This document shows positions 2,281-7,361 of a stretch of 64,000 nucleotides of DNA, piece by piece. The notes beneath the pieces are model-generated. The model worked only from the letters and a program-made list of their open reading frames with translations, ran no database searches and had not been told where the DNA came from. The stretch's first letter is position 1; each line of letters begins with the position of its first letter. The DNA lies in sequence record MT833282.1. One strand, given 5' to 3'. Source of the stretch: Escherichia coli phage vB_EcoM_Shy. The position numbers and the translations under genes were made by a program.

Positions 2281-2357
2281 CTCTGTTTAGCTCAGCTTGG
2301 TAGAGCGTTCCGTTTGGGGCGGTAAGGTCGGAGGTTCAAGTCCTCCAACAGAGACCA
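2281..2357 (+). tRNA. tRNA-Pro(TGG)
   Basis: 7-bp acceptor stem with C1-G72, D stem gctc/gagc, T arm ggagg-ttcaagt-cctcc, anticodon loop tttgggg, encoded CCA. Confidence 0.7.
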
Positions 2358-2364
2358 AATTAAT

Positions 2365-2442
2365 GTTCCAGTAGACAAAATGGTAAAGTCACCACTCTTT
2401 CAAAGTGGATATTTGAGGGTTCAAATCCCTTCTGGAACGCCA
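2365..2442 (+). tRNA. tRNA-Glu(TTC)
   Basis: acceptor gttccag/ctggaac, anticodon loop ctttcaa, T loop ttcaaat, encoded CCA. Confidence 0.7.
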
Positions 2443-2449
2443 GTTTTGA

Positions 2450-2522
2450 CAGAAGACCAATTACAGCAAGTTTAATCTTATTCATCTGACACGAAATCGG
2501 ACAAAGAAGAGATTTGGTCTGG
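2450..2522 (+). repeat. tRNA-array interspersed element E1 (cagaagacc...ggtctgg family)
   Basis: 5' cagaagaccaattacagcaa and 3' ggtctgg termini shared with elements at 2617, 3094, 3180. Confidence 0.5.
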
Positions 2523-2533
2523 TCATTAAGAAT

Positions 2534-2610
2534 TGCGGGTATAGAGAAAGGGCGTCTCACATGTCTCATTAGCATGGTATCGGCAGGTTCGACTCCTGCA
2601 CCCGCCTCCA
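2534..2610 (+). tRNA. tRNA-Met or Ile2 (CAT)
   Basis: anticodon loop ctcatta, T arm gcagg-ttcgact-cctgc, mismatched 1-72 pair, encoded CCA; D-arm register ambiguous. Confidence 0.55.
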
Positions 2611-2616
2611 ATTTTG

Positions 2617-2676
2617 CAGAAGACCGTATTCAGCAACAAACTACTTTTTGCGGATAAAAGAAAAAACACGGTCTGG
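2617..2676 (+). repeat. tRNA-array interspersed element E2
   Basis: cagaagaccgtattcagcaa ... acggtctgg; same terminal motifs as E1. Confidence 0.5.
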
Positions 2677-2687
2677 CAATGTATTAA

Positions 2688-2764
2688 GGTTAGGAAGCAC
2701 ATAAGGTATGTGCGGTCGCCTGTTAAGCGAATGGCACAGGGTTCGAATCCCTGACTAACCGCCA
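2688..2764 (+). tRNA. tRNA-Asn(GTT)
   Basis: acceptor ggttagg/actaacc, D stem gcac/gtgc, anticodon loop ctgttaa, T arm caggg-ttcgaat-ccctg, CCA. Confidence 0.7.
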
Positions 2765-2835
2765 AATTTAGGAGAGAAGCGATTGCTCACCGATTTGTAA
2801 GGTGCAAGTCCTTAGCCTGAATAGAATAATAAAAT

Positions 2836-2922
2836 GTGTCGTTATCCCGTAGATGGTAGCGGTGGGGACTGTAAATCCCTTGTCATTGAGACTCGGTAGG
2901 TTCGACTCCTACACGGCACACC
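2836..2922 (+). tRNA. tRNA-Tyr(GTA), long variable arm
   Basis: 87 nt; acceptor gtgtcgt/acggcac, anticodon loop ctgtaaa, long variable arm, T arm gtagg-ttcgact-cctac, CCA. Confidence 0.65.
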
Positions 2923-2929
2923 AAATAAA

Positions 2930-3007
2930 GGTTATGTAGTTTAATCTGGTTAAAATACTCCCCTGTCACGGGAGATGATGAGGGTTCAAATCCCTTCGTA
3001 ACCGCCA
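2930..3007 (+). tRNA. tRNA-Asp(GTC)
   Basis: acceptor ggttatg/cgtaacc, anticodon stem-loop ctccc-ctgtcac-gggag, T arm gaggg-ttcaaat-ccctt, CCA. Confidence 0.7.
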
Positions 3008-3093
3008 AATTATAATAAGTATTTCAAAATGATGTTTGAGAGGGCTATTTAGCCCCTCCCTTAAAGAGTTCTTACGAGTATTCTTTAAAGGAG

Positions 3094-3166
3094 CAGAAGA
3101 CCAAATTCAGCAAGAACGTATGAAATTTCAAGCCAATTTAATTTTGAAAATTTAAACTTGGTCTGG
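3094..3166 (+). repeat. tRNA-array interspersed element E3
   Basis: cagaagaccaaattcagcaa ... cttggtctgg. Confidence 0.5.
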
Positions 3167-3179
3167 CTCAACAAATTTA

Positions 3180-3311
3180 CAGAAGACCGTTTACAGCAAA
3201 ACTTAAACAATCTATTTCTCCGGTAAAGAAAAGGCGAAGGTTCGATTCCTTCACTCGGCAGATGTCGAGTTGGTGTAATGGTAGCACTTAAGATGATAAA
3301 CAATGGTCTGG
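3180..3311 (+). repeat. tRNA-array interspersed element E4 carrying a tRNA-like core
   Basis: cagaagaccgtttacagcaa ... caatggtctgg; direct repeat acttaa...aacaat on both sides of the core. Confidence 0.5.
3236..3286 (+). ncRNA. tRNA-like core with permuted arm order (T arm, then acceptor hairpin, then D-like arm)
   Basis: gaagg-ttcgatt-ccttc T arm followed by actcggc-agat-gtcgagt (7-bp acceptor-like helix closed by a 4-nt loop) and agttggtgtaatggtagcac D-like arm. Confidence 0.35.
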
Positions 3312-3312
3312 T

Positions 3313-5350: not shown

Positions 5351-5425
5351 GCAGGATTAGTTCAAATGGATAGAGCAACAGTTTACGAAGCTGTTAATAG
5401 GGGTTCGAATCCCTTATCCTGCGCC
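5351..5425 (+). tRNA. tRNA-Arg(ACG)
   Basis: acceptor gcaggat/atcctgc, anticodon stem-loop acagt-ttacgaa-gctgt, T loop ttcgaat, CCA. Confidence 0.65.
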
Positions 5426-5445
5426 AATTTAAAGAGGCTATTTAG

Positions 5446-6003
5446 ATGAGATATTTGAAGTATGCTTCATGGATTTTCTTAGCTTTGTTAGAGCCATTTG
5501 CAGCAATCTTAGCAGTTATCTTAGCACCTTTCGTAGTTCCATTTTACAGTGAGAAGAAAGGACACTTACCTTTCGGATTTAGATGGATGGAGACATATGA
5601 CAACCCTATTGATGGTGATGAAGGTCATATCGAACGATGGGCTAAGATTAGAAAGATTGGTAAGCTAGGTGTCTATATGCAGAGAGTCGGATGGCTCTGG
5701 AGAAACAAAGCTTATAACTTCTCCTACCATGTGTTAGGAAGAGATGTAAAAGATGTTACTAAGTGGAAAGGTAATATCAACGTAAGTTCTAACCCTAAAG
5801 ATAATCAGACAGGTTATCTCCTAATGTGGAACAGTAATGCTTGGGGATTATTCGCTTTTATCCCATCAATTAAAGTCTTTGGTAAACAATTCTACTGGAG
5901 AATTTATGTTGGGTGGAAACTTAAAAGTGTTGTCCCAGAAGAAAGAGCATTCTCAAGGGAAAGAGTTATGTTGGCATTCTTTATTCATCCACTGAGAAAG
6001 TAA
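5446..6003 (+). CDS. hypothetical membrane protein embedded in tRNA array
   Basis: 185-aa ORF with RBS aagagg; hydrophobic N-terminal segment WIFLALLEPFAAILAVILAPFVVPF. Confidence 0.6.
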   Translation: MRYLKYASWIFLALLEPFAAILAVILAPFVVPFYSEKKGHLPFGFRWMETYDNPIDGDEGHIERWAKIRKIGKLGVYMQRVGWLWRNKAYNFSYHVLGRDVKDVTKWKGNINVSSNPKDNQTGYLLMWNSNAWGLFAFIPSIKVFGKQFYWRIYVGWKLKSVVPEERAFSRERVMLAFFIHPLRK

Positions 6004-6011
6004 AGATTTAA

Positions 6012-6087
6012 AGGGGATTAGTTTACAAGGTTAAAACCTCGGTCTTTGAAATCGAAGAAGTTGGTTCAATTCCAACATCCCCCGCCA
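6012..6087 (+). tRNA. tRNA-Gln(TTG)
   Basis: D stem gttt/aaac, anticodon stem-loop tcggt-ctttgaa-atcga, T arm gttgg-ttcaatt-ccaac, CCA. Confidence 0.6.
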
Positions 6088-6089
6088 AT

Positions 6090-6166
6090 GCTCCATTACT
6101 CCAATTGGCAGAGGCCAGACTTAAAATCTGTGTTATGTATCGGTTCGAATCCGATATGGAGTACCA
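6090..6166 (+). tRNA. tRNA with anticodon TAA (Leu by anticodon, short variable arm)
   Basis: anticodon stem-loop caga-cttaaaa-tctg, T arm atcgg-ttcgaat-ccgat, A73, CCA. Confidence 0.5.
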
Positions 6167-6171
6167 AATTT

Positions 6172-6247
6172 AGCGGTATAGCATAACTGGCAATGCAGCA
6201 GTCTCTGAAGCTGTCTTATTAAGGTTCAAATCCTTATGCCGCTGCCA
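6172..6247 (+). tRNA. tRNA-Gln(CTG)
   Basis: anticodon stem-loop gcagt-ctctgaa-gctgt, T arm taagg-ttcaaat-cctta, CCA. Confidence 0.55.
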
Positions 6248-6278
6248 CTTCTAAGGATTCTTACGAGAGTCCTTAAAT

Positions 6279-6354
6279 GTGGCCTTATCATAAACGGTAA
6301 TGACCCATGCTGTGAACATGGTCTATACGGGTTCAAATCCCGTAGGTCACCCCA
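6279..6354 (+). tRNA. tRNA-His(GTG)
   Basis: anticodon stem-loop ccatg-ctgtgaa-catgg, T arm acggg-ttcaaat-cccgt, CCA. Confidence 0.7.
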
Positions 6355-6360
6355 ATTTAT

Positions 6361-6436
6361 AGTCCAAGTAGCTTATATGGTTAAAGCGCGTGTCTGAAAA
6401 ACATGAGAAGAGGGTTCAAATCCCACTGGACTACCA
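6361..6436 (+). tRNA. tRNA-Phe(GAA)
   Basis: acceptor agtccaa/ctggact, anticodon stem-loop cgtgt-ctgaaaa-acatg, T loop ttcaaat, CCA. Confidence 0.65.
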
Positions 6437-6452
6437 ATTTCAAAGGTGCTTA

Positions 6453-7187
6453 ATGAAAGAGATGACAGAACAAGGTAAGGAGATTTTTAGTCTCTTAAAA
6501 ACCGGTAGAGGGTTTTCTAATCCCCTTATTACTGGTGCAGCAGTTCTCGGTGGAACCGTAGCTGCCTCTACATCACTTGTAAGCTCTATTAGCTCTGTAA
6601 CAGACCCTACAATAAAGGATAAACTTGTTGCTGCTGGACTTACAACAGTTCTGCTTAACAGCTTTACAACGAGTCTGACAAGCACTACATCGACTACTAA
6701 AACGCTGACAGATTATGGTCAAAAGTCTATTGATGAGTTTTCATCACGTATGCAGGTAGCAAAAGGATATTCCAATGTTATGGGTGCAGCAGGAGAACAA
6801 GTCGGTTGTACGCCATTTAGTGGTATTATGGGCGTTGCTACAGAGTATGGTCAAAAAGCTATTGATACGATTAACAGTGCATTAGACGGTGTTAATGATG
6901 TATTAAGTGACTTACAAGACGCTATTGACAAAGGTCTTGATACTATTTCTGATTTAGCTAACCAAGCTGTTAGTAAGATTAATGAAGGTATCTCGAAGAT
7001 TACAGCTTATGCAGATGAAGTTGTGCAGATGATTGAAGAAGAAGCTGCCCTTATTGCAGAGTACCTTAAAACGAATATCAATGGGTTCTTAGCAGGTATC
7101 TTACCAGACTGGTTTGATGATGCTTGTAAAACTGGTGTAATTGATACTATTGCAACACCAGAAATGAAGAACGCATTACAGAAATAA
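6453..7187 (+). CDS. hypothetical protein (Ser/Thr-rich N-terminal half)
   Basis: ORF-track ORF 6390-7187 trimmed to the first ATG after tRNA-Phe, with RBS aaagg upstream. Confidence 0.55.
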   Translation: MKEMTEQGKEIFSLLKTGRGFSNPLITGAAVLGGTVAASTSLVSSISSVTDPTIKDKLVAAGLTTVLLNSFTTSLTSTTSTTKTLTDYGQKSIDEFSSRMQVAKGYSNVMGAAGEQVGCTPFSGIMGVATEYGQKAIDTINSALDGVNDVLSDLQDAIDKGLDTISDLANQAVSKINEGISKITAYADEVVQMIEEEAALIAEYLKTNINGFLAGILPDWFDDACKTGVIDTIATPEMKNALQK

Positions 7188-7188
7188 T

Positions 7189-7281
7189 GGAAGATTAACC
7201 CTAAAAGGTAAGGGAGCAGTTTGCTAAACTGCCAGTAGCTGAGAAATCGGTGTACCAGTTCAAGTCTGGTATCTTCCTCCA
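7189..7281 (+). tRNA. tRNA-Ser(GCT), long variable arm
   Basis: 93 nt; anticodon stem-loop gcagt-ttgctaa-actgc, long variable arm, T arm accag-ttcaagt-ctggt, CCA; starts 2 nt after the preceding stop codon. Confidence 0.65.
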
Positions 7282-7285
7282 ATTT

Positions 7286-7361
7286 GAATCCGTGACAGAA
7301 ATGGCTATGTACCTGTCTGCAAAACAGGTTTATAAGGGTTCGAGTCCCTTCGGATTCTCCA
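7286..7361 (+). tRNA. tRNA-Cys(GCA)
   Basis: acceptor gaatccg/cggattc, anticodon stem-loop cctgt-ctgcaaa-acagg, T arm aaggg-ttcgagt-ccctt, CCA. Confidence 0.7.

What the first reader, a model, noticed from the sequence alone, without database searches (positions are those of the whole stretch)
2281..7361. Near-complete tRNA complement (about 27 genes) in 5 kb
Manual calls give anticodons for all 20 amino acids (Pro, Glu, Met x2 or Met+Ile2, Asn, Tyr, Asp, Lys x2, Ile, Arg x2, Trp, Ser x2, Leu x3, Ala, Gly, Thr, Val, Gln x2, His, Phe, Cys), almost all with encoded CCA. Arrays of this size are typical of large virulent phages and are thought to compensate for codon-usage mismatch and for host tRNA depletion or cleavage by anticodon nucleases.
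Basis: partly seen in the sequence, partly recalled or inferred. Interest (0 to 1): 0.55.

Follow-up and report, generated by a model that had tools for sequence, protein, structure and literature searches.

The report
Phage tRNA operon hiding Y-like RNAs
The 5-kb block is a real but already known tRNA gene array of a Felix O1-like phage; interleaved with it are an unrecognised odd tRNA-Trp-like gene and four small Y-RNA-like genes that seem to partner the Ro60-like protein encoded just upstream, a pairing that recurs in many unrelated phages.

Summary
ARAGORN tRNA genes, all on the + strand, at 2281-7361. Rfam confirms 24 of them, and 25 of 26 encode CCA. The window is a Felixounavirus (about 97% identical to phages JH2 and CL1). 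Its array is already annotated and has been analysed in print for the relative Sf14 (26 tRNAs, 19 amino acids), so the finding as written is ordinary.

It is nevertheless a conserved cloverleaf with six compensatory pairs and none broken.

The new part lies between the tRNAs. The ORF directly upstream (700-2115, Pfam DUF2828) is predicted to fold like Ro60. Four paralogous elements (2447-2525, 2614-2679, 3091-3169, 3177-3314) share a covarying terminal stem followed by a UWCMGCAA motif. The fourth carries a permuted tRNA-like domain in the same arm order as bacterial YrlA.

Covariance models find such elements beside DUF2828 genes in 52 of 75 distant viral contigs, always on the gene's strand and mostly within 400 nt. 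Rfam and the searchable literature lack them.

Codon compensation is supported. Escape from anticodon nucleases through loop mutations is not. RNA expression and protein binding are inferred, not shown.

The parts
700..2115 (+). Ro60-like protein gene (471 aa; Pfam DUF2828 + DUF7788; PHROG 850 'RNA-binding protein'), directly upstream of the array
   Evidence: Pfam and PHROGs. AF2 model with pLDDT 87.6 and pTM 0.88. The top 12 Foldseek PDB hits are all Ro60/TROVE, full length, TM about 0.6, E about 1e-7. Invariant D279-x-S281-x-S283, T349 and D381 form a MIDAS-like motif.
2134..2254 (+). two sigma-70-like promoter matches (2134-2162 and 2225-2254) just upstream of the first tRNA
   Evidence: 10 of 12 matches each. 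These are consensus matches only; the total count in the region is not above shuffles.
2281..2357 (+). tRNA-Pro(UGG)
2365..2442 (+). tRNA-Glu(UUC)
2447..2525 (+). Y-like RNA E1 (short form): outer helix TGAC/GTCA, AGA/G internal loop, 7-bp helix AGACCAA/TTGGTCT, motif UUACAGCAA
   Evidence: Sequence, fold. Leave-out model R3 gives E 1e-5, the top hit in the window. R2 gives E 7e-5.
2534..2610 (+). atypical tRNA(CAU) 'Met' number 1: U1xC72 mismatch and U at position 37
   Evidence: ARAGORN. No Rfam hit. Anticodon loop CTCATTA. The Sf14 orthologue has ambiguous isotype scores.
2614..2679 (+). Y-like RNA E2 (short form): TTGC/GCAA, AGACCGT/ACGGTCT, motif AUUCAGCAA
   Evidence: R3 E 1.3e-4. R2 E 2.5e-5.
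2688..2764 (+). tRNA-Asn(GUU)
2836..2923 (+). tRNA-Tyr(GUA), long variable arm
   Evidence: Rfam hits only the tRNA-Sec model, 29.6 bits.
2930..3007 (+). tRNA-Asp(GUC)
3091..3169 (+). Y-like RNA E3 (short form): GAGC/GCTC, AGACCAA/TTGGTCT, motif AUUCAGCAA
   Evidence: R3 E 4e-4.
3177..3314 (+). Y-like RNA E4 (long, YrlA-like form): the same basal stem and motif enclosing a V hairpin, a T arm (GAAGG-UUCGAUU-CCUUC), a closed 7-bp acceptor-like hairpin (ACUCGGC-AGAU-GUCGAGU) and a D arm (GGUG-UAAUGGUAG-CACU)
   Evidence: Fold, descriptor scan, covariation of the AS helix in Moogle and SUSP1/Sf17. Model R2 built from its orthologues finds full-length relatives in distant loci, down to E 4e-11. Rfam gives only a 22-bit partial tRNA hit.
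3459..3534 (+). tRNA-Lys(UUU)
3539..3615 (+). tRNA(CAU) 'Met' number 2; Met versus Ile2 identity unresolved
3617..3692 (+). tRNA-Ile(GAU)
3708..3736 (+). internal sigma-70-like promoter match (TTGACA-17-TATAGT, 11 of 12)
4028..4104 (+). tRNA-Arg(UCU)
4247..4329 (+). non-canonical tRNA-Trp-like gene: anticodon CCA at 4287-4289, G73, encoded CCA, 10-nt connector between the acceptor stem and a 3-bp D stem, C31xA39 mismatch
   Evidence: Not called by ARAGORN or Rfam. Cloverleaf kept in 6 variants, with 6 compensatory pairs and none broken.
4343..4432 (+). tRNA-Ser(UGA); the only tRNA without an encoded CCA; bracketed by 14-nt inverted repeats at 4329-4342 and 4431-4444
4689..4766 (+). tRNA-Leu(UAG)
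4774..4849 (+). tRNA-Lys(CUU); no host counterpart according to PMC12482277
4856..4931 (+). tRNA-Ala(UGC)
4938..5012 (+). tRNA-Gly(UCC)
5020..5095 (+). tRNA-Thr(UGU)
5192..5266 (+). tRNA-Val(UAC)
5268..5345 (+). tRNA-Leu(CAA)
5351..5426 (+). tRNA-Arg(ACG)
5446..6003 (+). protein gene inside the array (185 aa, DUF7338, PHROG 2143, function unknown)
6012..6087 (+). tRNA-Gln(UUG)
6090..6166 (+). tRNA-Leu(UAA)
6172..6247 (+). tRNA-Gln(CUG)
6279..6354 (+). tRNA-His(GUG)
6361..6436 (+). tRNA-Phe(GAA)
6453..7187 (+). protein gene inside the array (244 aa, DUF7217, PHROG 2114, function unknown; called 'putative membrane protein' or 'holin' in some records)
7189..7281 (+). tRNA-Ser(GCU)
7286..7361 (+). 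tRNA-Cys(GCA)
7524..7541 (+). terminator-like hairpin followed by a T-run, after the last tRNA
   Evidence: consensus match only

Best explanation
The region is the tRNA operon of a Felix O1-like (Felixounavirus) phage, and it is a composite.

(1) There are 26 canonical tRNA genes, plus one conserved non-canonical tRNA-Trp-like gene. They are probably transcribed from sigma-70-like promoters at about 2134/2225 and 3708. The transcripts are probably cut out by the host tRNA-processing enzymes. CCA is already encoded in 25 of 26. These tRNAs supply decoders for the A/U-rich codons the phage prefers (AGA, CUA, UUA, CCA, UCA, ACA, GGA, AAG), chiefly for the structural genes that begin right after the array.

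(2) Four Y-RNA-like non-coding RNAs (E1-E4) are interleaved among the first nine tRNAs. They would be released by the same processing events. Each has a terminal stem formed by its 5' and 3' ends, followed on the 5' strand by a conserved UWCMGCAA motif. E4 also carries a circularly permuted tRNA mimic with arm order V-T-closed acceptor-D, as in bacterial YrlA.

(3) These RNAs are most likely the ligands of the Ro60-like (TROVE ring plus vWA/MIDAS) protein encoded immediately upstream. Together they would form a phage Ro60/Y-RNA particle. Its tRNA-like module would let it engage tRNA-binding enzymes or nucleases, for RNA quality control or for counter-defence.

Shown here: the genes, the folds, the covariation, the co-occurrence of protein and RNA across phages, and the codon match. 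Inferred: transcription, processing, RNA-protein binding, and the particle's role.
For: tRNAs. Identity of the phage and conservation of the array in 398 phage records. Codon match: and PMC12482277.

Trp-like cloverleaf: 100% of cells paired, 6 compensatory pairs, none in the slid controls.

Ro60-like fold: the top 12 PDB matches are all Ro60/Rsr/phage Ro60, on a confident model.

E1-E4 share a basal stem whose outer 4 bp covary (TGAC, TTGC, GAGC, TTAC), together with an identical internal loop and motif.

Family-wide evidence:
- Model R1 gives 82 hits at E<=0.1 in 914 kb around DUF2828 genes. All are on the gene's strand. They fall in 56 of the 79 loci searched, including 52 of the 75 distant loci, and in 47 of those 56 loci the nearest hit lies within 400 nt of the gene.
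- Six of the seven stem pairs covary.
- Leave-out model R3, built only from distant contigs, ranks E1, E2 and E3 as the top three hits of the whole 64-kb window (E 1e-5 to 4e-4). It finds nothing better than E 0.11 in 55 kb of E. coli plus T4 DNA.
- An independent descriptor for T arm -> closed hairpin -> D arm gives 27 hits on the + strand, 0 on the - strand and 1 in shuffled sequence. The 8 hairpin-capped hits in distant loci that were inspected all turn out to be wrapped by the same stem and motif.
- Model R2, built only from Ounavirinae E4 orthologues, finds full-length long forms in at least 20 distant loci, and all 56 of its hits are on the + strand.
- RNAalifold on a crude alignment recovers the basal stem and the T arm with compensatory changes.

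The arm order V-T-AS-D is that described for YrlA (PMC4201824). A preprint reports that the Bas63 orthologue gp130 is Ro60-like in structure and counters the Ppl defence. Its authors guess that Y RNAs may hide among the tRNAs (PMC11482910).
Against: There are no expression data, so E1-E4 and the Trp-like gene are predictions. RNA-protein binding is inferred only from co-location and analogy.

The motifs known to bind Ro60 are absent: GGUCCGA in animals, and GNCGAA or CGAA in bacteria and in phage phiLo. Pfam's TROVE model does not hit the protein; only DUF2828 and DUF7788 do. phmmer finds no PDB relative by sequence.

Single-sequence folding energies of E1 and E4 are not unusual (z -1.0 and -1.2). 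The training sequences for R1 and R3 were picked with a descriptor that demanded pairing, so the percentage paired is partly circular. Model E-values are rough.

The V hairpin of E4 is not kept in Moogle. The promoter and terminator matches are no more numerous than in shuffles. The codon effect is modest and is not significant against highly expressed host genes.
Confidence: 0.7

Rival explanations
1. It is a plain tRNA array. The E1-E4 elements are only spacer or processing structures of the precursor, such as RNase E or RNase III entry sites or stabilising hairpins, and have no dedicated protein partner.
For: They lie between tRNAs, 4-10 nt from tRNA ends. The array holds several other very stable hairpins that look like processing signals. 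Single-sequence folding z-scores of E1 and E4 are unremarkable.
Against: The same stem plus motif occurs next to DUF2828 genes in 52 of 75 distant contigs. These include many loci with no tRNA gene within 6 kb, where the element sits about 25-30 nt after the stop codon of the gene. The interior of E4 and of its distant relatives is a conserved tRNA mimic, not a simple hairpin.
Confidence: 0.15
2. The array exists mainly to defeat host anticodon nucleases. The phage tRNAs either resist cleavage or replenish cleaved host tRNAs, and codon matching is secondary.
For: The set is almost complete and includes every classic nuclease target (Lys, Tyr, Asn, Asp, His, Arg). Fifteen of 25 anticodon loops differ from the host's. 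Phage tRNAs are known to rescue infection from tRNA-cleaving defences in other phages (van den Berg 2023, cited).
Against: The loops of Lys-UUU, Tyr, Asn, Asp and Arg-UCU are identical to the host loops. The differences that do occur are mostly at positions 32 and 38. The Sf14 study rejects this hypothesis for the orthologous array. In Bas63 the tRNAs were mostly dispensable on four laboratory strains.
Confidence: 0.15
3. The Trp-like element at 4247-4329 is a decaying tRNA-Trp pseudogene, so the phage truly lacks a Trp decoder.
For: No tRNA finder accepts it. It has a 10-nt connector in place of the normal 2 nt, a 3-bp D stem, and mismatches at 31-39 and 49-65. BLAST finds no match to it in phage SUSP1.
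Against: Every substitution that falls in a stem among 6 variants from three genera is compensatory or wobble-compatible: 6 pairs changed on both sides and none broken. A pseudogene would accumulate disruptive changes. The anticodon CCA, G73, A1-U72 (in relatives), G5-C68 and the encoded CCA end are all kept. As I recall from Himeno et al. 1991, these are the identity elements of E. coli tRNA-Trp.
Confidence: 0.2
4. E1-E4 are trans-acting regulatory small RNAs that use UWCMGCAA as a seed against host or phage mRNAs, independently of the Ro60-like protein.
For: The motif is predicted to be single-stranded and is the most conserved part of the RNAs.
Against: The motif is conserved across phages of very different hosts, while its only constant neighbour is the DUF2828 gene. 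A seed would be expected to track host targets.
Confidence: 0.07

Closest known systems
tRNA arrays of Felix O1-like phages (Ounavirinae): Felix O1 with 22 tRNAs (PMC3185647) and Shigella phage Sf14 with 26 tRNAs for 19 amino acids (PMC12482277)
   Same: This is the same locus, with the same gene order and the same anticodons. The window is about 97% identical to annotated Felixounavirus genomes. The codon-usage conclusions also agree.
   Different: Published annotations list only the canonical tRNAs. The Trp-like gene and E1-E4 are unannotated, or are covered by spurious 'hypothetical protein' ORFs.
Bacterial Ro60 (Rsr) with YrlA/YrlB Y RNAs (Chen et al. 2014, PMC4201824)
   Same: A Ro60-fold protein gene is accompanied by several small RNA genes on the same strand within a few kb. 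One RNA carries a tRNA-like domain in the order V-T-AS-D, closed at the acceptor end and opened at the anticodon end. Shorter paralogues lack that domain. In each RNA the 5' and 3' ends pair to form the stem.
   Different: The protein belongs to a different sequence family (DUF2828/DUF7788, not Pfam TROVE). The conserved RNA motif is UWCMGCAA, placed after a 7-bp stem, rather than GNCGAA. The RNAs are embedded in a tRNA operon. No link to rtcBA was seen.
Thermus phage phiLo Ro60 with Yrl1 and Yrl2 (NAR 2025, PMC12135203), and the TROVE-annotated phages (mycobacteriophages, CcrColossus, Bacillus phage G)
   Same: These are phage-encoded Ro60 homologues with Y-RNA-like genes beside them. The phiLo structures are among the best structural matches to the window's protein.
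   Different: Those RNAs were found through the CGAA motif and a stem-bulge-stem shape. The present family has a different motif, a different protein family and a much wider distribution: 588 confirmed DUF2828 loci in IMG/VR.
Phage T4 tRNA cluster with the small stable RNAs rnaC and rnaD (species 1 and 2)
   Same: Non-tRNA small RNAs of unknown function are encoded inside a phage tRNA cluster and released with the tRNAs. rnaC contains a T-arm-like hairpin.
   Different: They are not members of this family. Model R1 has no hit on rnaC or rnaD, and no Ro60-like gene is annotated in the 6 kb of T4 around the cluster that was fetched.

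Membership tests
canonical bacterial-type tRNA genes (the 26 calls) | Cloverleaf accepted by a dedicated tRNA finder | tested here: met
   ARAGORN at default settings of 26. The same set is found in relatives.
canonical bacterial-type tRNA genes (the 26 calls) | Score above Rfam RF00005 gathering threshold | tested here: met
   24 of 26 pass. The exceptions are Tyr 2836-2923 and CAU number 1 at 2534-2610.
canonical bacterial-type tRNA genes (the 26 calls) | Expression, processing and aminoacylation | not testable with these tools
   No transcript or charging data are available.
tRNA-Trp (element 4247-4329) | Standard cloverleaf geometry: 2-nt connector at positions 8-9, 3-4 bp D stem, 7-nt anticodon loop closed by a 31-39 pair | tested here: not met
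   The connector is 10 nt. Position 31-39 is a C x A mismatch, or else the loop is 9 nt. Position 49-65 is an A x C mismatch. ARAGORN and Rfam reject it.
tRNA-Trp (element 4247-4329) | Helices maintained by selection (covariation) | tested here: met
   19 pairs, 100% of cells paired, 6 pairs changed on both sides, none in the slid controls.
tRNA-Trp (element 4247-4329) | TrpRS identity elements: CCA anticodon, G73, A1-U72, G5-C68 (Himeno et al. 1991, from memory) | tested here: met
   All are present in the sequence. The window itself has G1.U72, while most relatives have A1-U72. Actual charging was not tested.
Ro60 / TROVE proteins (ORF 700-2115) | Ring of HEAT-like helical repeats followed by a vWA domain with a MIDAS motif | tested here: met
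   AF2 model with pTM 0.88. Full-length Foldseek matches to 2i91, 1yvp, 2nvo, 9l5y and 9kop, E 7e-8 to 4e-6, TM up to 0.65; the next-best hits match the vWA domain only. DxSxS...T...D is invariant.
Ro60 / TROVE proteins (ORF 700-2115) | Sequence membership in Pfam TROVE | tested here: not met
   Pfam reports only DUF2828 and DUF7788 at E<=0.01. phmmer against PDB sequences finds nothing at E<=1. The protein is Ro60-like in fold, but it is not a demonstrated member by sequence.
Ro60 / TROVE proteins (ORF 700-2115) | Binds Y RNA and misfolded RNA | not testable with these tools
   Needs biochemistry.
YrlA-type Y RNA (E4; E1-E3 as YrlB-like) | Encoded near the Ro60 gene on the same strand | tested here: met
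   E1-E4 lie 330-1200 nt downstream of the gene on the + strand. Family-wide, 82 of 82 R1 hits and 56 of 56 R2 hits are on the gene's strand.
YrlA-type Y RNA (E4; E1-E3 as YrlB-like) | 5' and 3' ends pair into a terminal stem | tested here: met
   The stem is 7 bp, with 6 pairs covarying and one invariant G-C. RNAalifold recovers it.
YrlA-type Y RNA (E4; E1-E3 as YrlB-like) | tRNA-like domain with T and D arms separated by a closed acceptor-like stem-loop, preceded by a V arm | tested here: met
   E4 fold. The AS helix covaries: ACUCGGC/GUCGAGU, ACCCUUC/GAAGGGU and ACACG/CGUGU. The same architecture is found in distant loci. The order matches PMC4201824.
YrlA-type Y RNA (E4; E1-E3 as YrlB-like) | GNCGAAN0-1G motif near the 5' end (putative Rsr-binding site) | tested here: not met
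   The conserved motif is UWCMGCAA. No Rfam family matches the elements. Hence 'works like' a Y RNA, but a new variant.
YrlA-type Y RNA (E4; E1-E3 as YrlB-like) | Bound by Ro60; modified by TruB and DusA | not testable with these tools
   Needs RIP or CLIP and modification mapping.
phage tRNAs that evade anticodon nucleases through loop mutations (van den Berg et al. 2023) | Anticodon-loop substitutions relative to the host in the targeted isoacceptors | tested here: not met
   The loops of Lys-UUU, Tyr, Asn, Asp and Arg-UCU are identical to the host loops tabulated in PMC12482277. His and Arg-ACG differ only at position 32, or at positions 32 and 38.

The most novel reading that the evidence does not exclude
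DUF2828 proteins and the 'stem + UWCMGCAA' RNAs together form a large, so far unannotated branch of the Ro60/Y-RNA system that is specific to phages. It is present in hundreds of viral contigs. Its RNAs carry tRNA mimics, either permuted or in normal order, and in Felix O1-like phages they are built into the tRNA operon itself. The particle would use tRNA mimicry to capture or divert host tRNA-directed enzymes or defence nucleases. This fits the reported anti-Ppl activity of Bas63 gp130. The odd tRNA-Trp-like gene could be a further mimic rather than a decoder.
Probability: 0.45. Interest if true: 0.8.

Novelty: new variant of a known kind. Interest (0 to 1): 0.6.

Why it matters
The tRNA array itself adds nothing new. 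It is annotated in hundreds of Felixounavirus genomes and has been analysed in print.

What matters is what sits inside and in front of it.
- It gives concrete candidates, with coordinates, a consensus and covariance models, for the Y RNAs that a 2024 preprint only guessed might exist next to the Ro60-like anti-defence protein of these phages.
- It shows that this protein-RNA pairing is widespread in phages under the uninformative label DUF2828. That turns an unknown-function family into a testable ribonucleoprotein.
- It offers a natural system, in a tractable E. coli phage, for asking what tRNA-mimicking Y RNAs do. That question is still open for the bacterial YrlA.
- It flags a conserved tRNA-Trp-like gene that all tRNA finders miss. 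This bears on the published statement that these phages decode only 19 amino acids with their own tRNAs.

Tried and rejected
- Relaxed ARAGORN thresholds (-ps90, -ps80, -ps70) did not yield a tRNA-Trp call at 4247-4329. They produced only spurious alternative folds.
- Rfam at E<=5 over 2100-7600, and at gathering score over 11 distant loci, gave no known family for E1-E4 or their relatives. It returned only tRNA, chance miRNA and plastid hits, and one permuted tmRNA elsewhere.
- The idea that T4's long-mysterious rnaC and rnaD belong to the same family was rejected: model R1 has no hit there.
- The weak tmRNA match at 3839-4027 (17 bits against a gathering score of 47) was treated as chance.
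- My first loose stem-plus-motif descriptor had a high background (94 hits on the - strand, 84 in shuffles), so it was used only to collect candidates, not as evidence.
- One viral-contig scan was wasted on a pattern that was out of register by one base.
- The CUUA/UAAG 'anticodon-stem-like' helix in the minimum-energy fold of E4 is not kept in SUSP1 or Sf17 and was dropped from the model.
- The eighth pair of the basal stem is not real: 26 of 42 sequences are unpaired there.
- Two Y-RNA reviews could not be read because they are not held.
- Whether the two CAU tRNAs are Met, Ile2 or initiator could not be settled. In Sf14 the tRNAscan isotype scores are ambiguous and fMet scores are low.

Full report
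**What the window is.** Megablast of 2200-7500 against GenBank phages finds 398 records. In 227 of them one match covers at least 80% of the query. The best are Escherichia phages JH2, CL1 and C600M2 at about 97% identity, all Ounavirinae of the genus Felixounavirus. The same array, in the same order, is annotated in pinkbiff, CL1, Moogle, SUSP1 and Sf17. Immediately downstream lie a small ORF, the large terminase subunit (7791-9407) and an ORF in the position of the portal gene (9415-10890). The array therefore precedes the structural module.

**Checking the observation.**
- ARAGORN tRNA genes on the + strand between 2281 and 7361.
- Rfam's tRNA model passes its gathering score for 24 of them. 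It misses Tyr, which has a long variable arm and scores 29.6 bits on the tRNA-Sec model. It also misses the first CAU tRNA (2534-2610), which gets no hit even at E<=5.
- Twenty-five of the 26 end in an encoded CCA. Ser-UGA does not.
- Automated tools therefore support 26 genes for 19 amino acids. That is the count published for the related phage Sf14 (PMC12482277).
- The first CAU tRNA is odd. It has a U1xC72 mismatch and a U at position 37. In Sf14, tRNAscan-SE isotype scores for both CAU tRNAs are ambiguous and neither is classed as an initiator.

**The "Trp" call.**
- The element at 4247-4329 has an acceptor stem (GUGGGAC/GUCCCAU), discriminator G73, an encoded CCA, and an anticodon arm ACGGC-CUCCAAA-ACCGU.
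- It also has a 10-nt connector where tRNAs have two nucleotides, a 3-bp D stem, and mismatches at 31-39 and 49-65.
- ARAGORN rejects it even at relaxed settings.
- I collected its orthologues by BLAST and by a pattern scan of IMG/VR. Six distinct variants exist across Felixounavirus-, Moogle- and Sf17-type genomes.
- On an ungapped alignment (A3), all 19 pairs of the proposed cloverleaf are standard pairs in every sequence. Six pairs changed on both sides: one in the D stem, four in the anticodon stem and one in the T stem. Sliding the partners by 1-3 columns abolishes the signal.
- This is not what a decaying pseudogene looks like. It is a conserved, structured, tRNA-Trp-like gene of non-canonical geometry. 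Whether it decodes UGG is untested.

**Interpretation of the tRNAs.**
- I compared 73 long ORFs of the window (18,168 codons) with annotated E. coli K-12 genes. The K-12 sets were a ribosomal-protein/EF set (5,096 codons) and other genes (8,306 codons) from locus L101.
- The phage strongly over-uses AGA (16.8 per thousand against 1-2), CUA, UUA, CCA, UCA, ACA, GGA and AAG. Each of these has a cognate phage tRNA.
- Codons with a Watson-Crick cognate phage tRNA have a mean log2 phage/host ratio of +0.33 against -0.63 for the others (Mann-Whitney p=0.016, against the ordinary host genes).
- Against the highly expressed set the difference is not significant (p=0.26).
- This agrees with the Sf14 study, which favours codon and tRNA-pool effects on late genes and an "all-destructive" infection.
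- For anticodon nucleases, I compared the 7-nt anticodon loops with the host loops tabulated in that paper. Ten of 25 are identical, including Lys-UUU, Tyr, Asn, Asp and Arg-UCU, the classic targets.
- Escape by loop mutation is therefore not supported. Replenishment cannot be tested here.

**The gene upstream.**
- ORF 700-2115 (471 aa) hits Pfam DUF2828 and DUF7788, and PHROG 850 "RNA-binding protein".
- It has thousands of homologues, mostly from large phages, and no PDB relative by sequence.
- An AlphaFold2 model built on a 40-sequence alignment is confident (pLDDT 87.6, pTM 0.88).
- Its top 12 Foldseek matches in the PDB are all Ro60 proteins: Xenopus Ro60, Deinococcus Rsr and Thermus phage phiLo Ro60. 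They align over the full length, with E 7e-8 to 4e-6 and TM up to 0.65. After them come only isolated vWA domains.
- D279-x-S281-x-S283, T349 and D381 are invariant, as in a MIDAS site.
- A preprint independently notes that the Bas63 orthologue gp130 looks like Ro60 and counters the Ppl defence. [quoted passage not shown]

**The non-tRNA elements in the array.**
- Reading the spacers, I found four paralogous elements: E1 2447-2525, E2 2614-2679, E3 3091-3169 and E4 3177-3314.
- All have the form NNNC-[AGA]-AGACCNN-UWCAGCAA ... NNGGUCU-[G]-GNNN. The outer four pairs covary between copies: TGAC/GTCA, TTGC/GCAA, GAGC/GCTC and TTAC/GTAA.
- E1-E3 are 65-80 nt.
- E4 is 138 nt. Inside the same stem it folds into a small hairpin, a T arm (GAAGG-UUCGAUU-CCUUC), a closed 7-bp acceptor-like hairpin and a D arm with the GG of a D loop.
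- That is a tRNA circularly permuted at the anticodon. The order V-T-AS-D is the one described for bacterial YrlA (PMC4201824).
- The acceptor-like helix covaries completely between genera: ACUCGGC/GUCGAGU in Felixounavirus, ACCCUUC/GAAGGGU in Moogle, and ACACG/CGUGU in SUSP1 and Sf17.
- E3 and E4 are conserved in 251 phage records. In the 30 records sampled they are unannotated or covered by small "hypothetical protein" ORFs.

**Is the pairing with the Ro60-like gene general?**
- I fetched 80 viral contigs that encode DUF2828 relatives, 75 of them only 39-47% identical in protein, each with 6 kb of flank on either side.
- tRNA genes lie in 30 of the 75 distant loci, almost always on the gene's strand.
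- A descriptor for "T arm, then closed hairpin, then D arm" makes no use of the stem or the motif. It gave 27 hits on the gene's strand, none on the other strand and one in shuffled sequence. Some hits are tandem-tRNA junctions.
- The 8 hairpin-capped hits in distant loci that I inspected are all enclosed by a covarying stem followed by UUYCMGCAA.
- The consensus of 42 short forms is (A/U)G(G/A)NNNN-UWCMGCAA-variable-NNNN(C/U)C(U/A)-G. It has one invariant G-C pair and six covarying pairs.
- Model R1 gives 82 hits at E<=0.1 in 914 kb, all on the gene's strand. They fall in 56 of the 79 loci searched (52 of the 75 distant ones). In 47 of those 56 loci the nearest hit is within 400 nt of the gene, and often 25-30 nt after its stop codon.
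- To avoid circularity I built R3 from distant contigs only. With filters off, on the whole window and both strands, its three best hits are E1, E2 and E3 (E 1e-5, 1.3e-4, 4e-4).
- In 55 kb of E. coli and T4 DNA its best E-value is 0.11.
- Conversely, R2 was built only from six Ounavirinae E4 orthologues. It finds full-length long forms in at least 20 distant loci (L039 at E 4e-11, L014, L034, L042, L067 and others), and all 56 of its hits are on the gene's strand.
- RNAalifold on an unguided MAFFT alignment of 17 long forms recovers the basal stem and the T arm with compensatory changes.
- Some relatives carry a tRNA-like domain in normal order, lacking only the acceptor stem, inside the same wrapper (L062 and L067).

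**Comparison with what is known.**
- Ro60 with Y RNAs is well known in animals and bacteria. It has been described for TROVE-annotated phages and for Thermus phage phiLo, where the RNAs were recognised through a CGAA motif.
- The present RNAs lack that motif.
- The protein is not a Pfam TROVE member.
- No Rfam 15 family matches the RNAs.
- Full-text searches for Felixounavirus with "Y RNA", for YrlA with phage, and for DUF2828 return nothing beyond the preprint's guess.
- I therefore file this as a new variant of a known kind. It is Ro60/Y-RNA-like in architecture, with two defining sequence features tested and not met. The limits of the searchable library apply.
- T4's rnaC and rnaD are an analogy only.

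**How it most likely works.**
- Shown: the genes, their predicted folds and covariation, the protein fold, the co-occurrence of protein and RNA, and the codon match.
- Inferred:
  - Transcription starts from the TTGACA-type sites at 2134, 2225 and 3708 and ends at the hairpin at 7524-7541. These are consensus matches that are not enriched over shuffles.
  - The host tRNA-processing enzymes release the tRNAs and, because the spacers are only 4-10 nt, the Y-like RNAs as well.
  - The Ro60-like protein binds the stem and motif.
  - E4's tRNA mimic engages tRNA-directed enzymes or nucleases.
- The biological role (RNA quality control, counter-defence as reported for gp130, or both) is open.

**Verdict.** The finding as submitted is confirmed and ordinary. 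The surroundings make the locus worth a follow-up experiment.

Noticed in passing
window 4329-4444: tRNA-Ser(UGA) is the only tRNA without an encoded CCA. It is bracketed by 14-nt inverted repeats (93% complementary) that extend its acceptor stem into a helix of more than 20 bp (z -5.8). This looks like an RNase III-type processing substrate. The 5' arm starts at the last base of the Trp-like gene.
   Followed up: partly
window 3313-3456: A very stable structured element lies between E4 and tRNA-Lys. It has a 22-24 bp closing stem around a branched interior of about 98 nt (z -5.3). No Rfam match; function unknown.
   Followed up: partly
window 4594-4690: A long near-perfect hairpin with 26-nt arms (z -7.2) ends one base before tRNA-Leu(UAG). 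Rfam gives only chance plant-miRNA matches to it.
   Followed up: partly
window 3055-3096 and 6245-6282: Two stable hairpins (z -3.7 and -5.6) share the sequence TTCTTACGAG at the hairpin tip. The exact 10-mer occurs three times in 64 kb, two of them here.
   Followed up: partly
window 5096-5191: A structured spacer between tRNA-Thr and tRNA-Val (z -3.7) contains GAAGACCG, as in the 5' half of the Y-like elements, but lacks the UWCMGCAA motif. It may be a degenerate fifth copy.
   Followed up: no
window 33722-33781 (- strand): Both short-form models hit a good stem plus UUCAGCAA match (E about 0.01) inside a conserved protein gene (33584-33943, PHROG 4116), in sense orientation. It may be chance or an embedded element.
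   Followed up: partly
window 2534-2610: The first CAU tRNA is atypical. It has a U1xC72 mismatch (or, in another register, no directly encoded CCA), a U at position 37 and a 4-bp T stem. Rfam gives no hit at all. Its decoding identity is unclear.
   Followed up: partly
L062 5734-5833 and L067 5759-5852: In distant DUF2828 loci the same stem-plus-motif wrapper encloses a tRNA-like domain in normal order (D, anticodon and T arms) whose acceptor stem is replaced by the wrapper. ARAGORN calls these tRNA-Thr and tRNA-Asn(AUU). This is a second type of tRNA mimic in the family.
   Followed up: partly
L004 4757-5161 (phage SUSP1); also SP22 and BPS17L1: Relatives carry HNH or homing endonuclease genes inserted in the spacers of the array. 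In SUSP1 the insertion lies between tRNA-Arg and tRNA-Ser, and BLAST finds no match to the Trp-like element.
   Followed up: no
L001 2460-2690 and 2757-2936; L002 5530-5793 and 6546-6638: Public annotations of the array contain likely errors. Small 'hypothetical protein' ORFs are laid over E3/E4 and over tRNA-Lys/Met/Ile in pinkbiff. In CL1 several tRNAs are placed on the wrong strand, and there is an extra overlapping 'tRNA-Val'.
   Followed up: no
L042 1353-1676: A permuted tmRNA (Rfam RF04321, 71.7 bits) is encoded about 3.4 kb upstream of the DUF2828 gene in an unrelated viral contig.
   Followed up: no
window 31000-42000: GC skew is negative from about 32 to 42 kb and positive elsewhere. 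This fits a block of genes transcribed from the - strand.
   Followed up: no
window 5446-6003 and 6453-7187: Two conserved protein genes of unknown function (DUF7338 and DUF7217) are embedded in the tRNA array. The second ends two bases before tRNA-Ser(GCU).
   Followed up: partly
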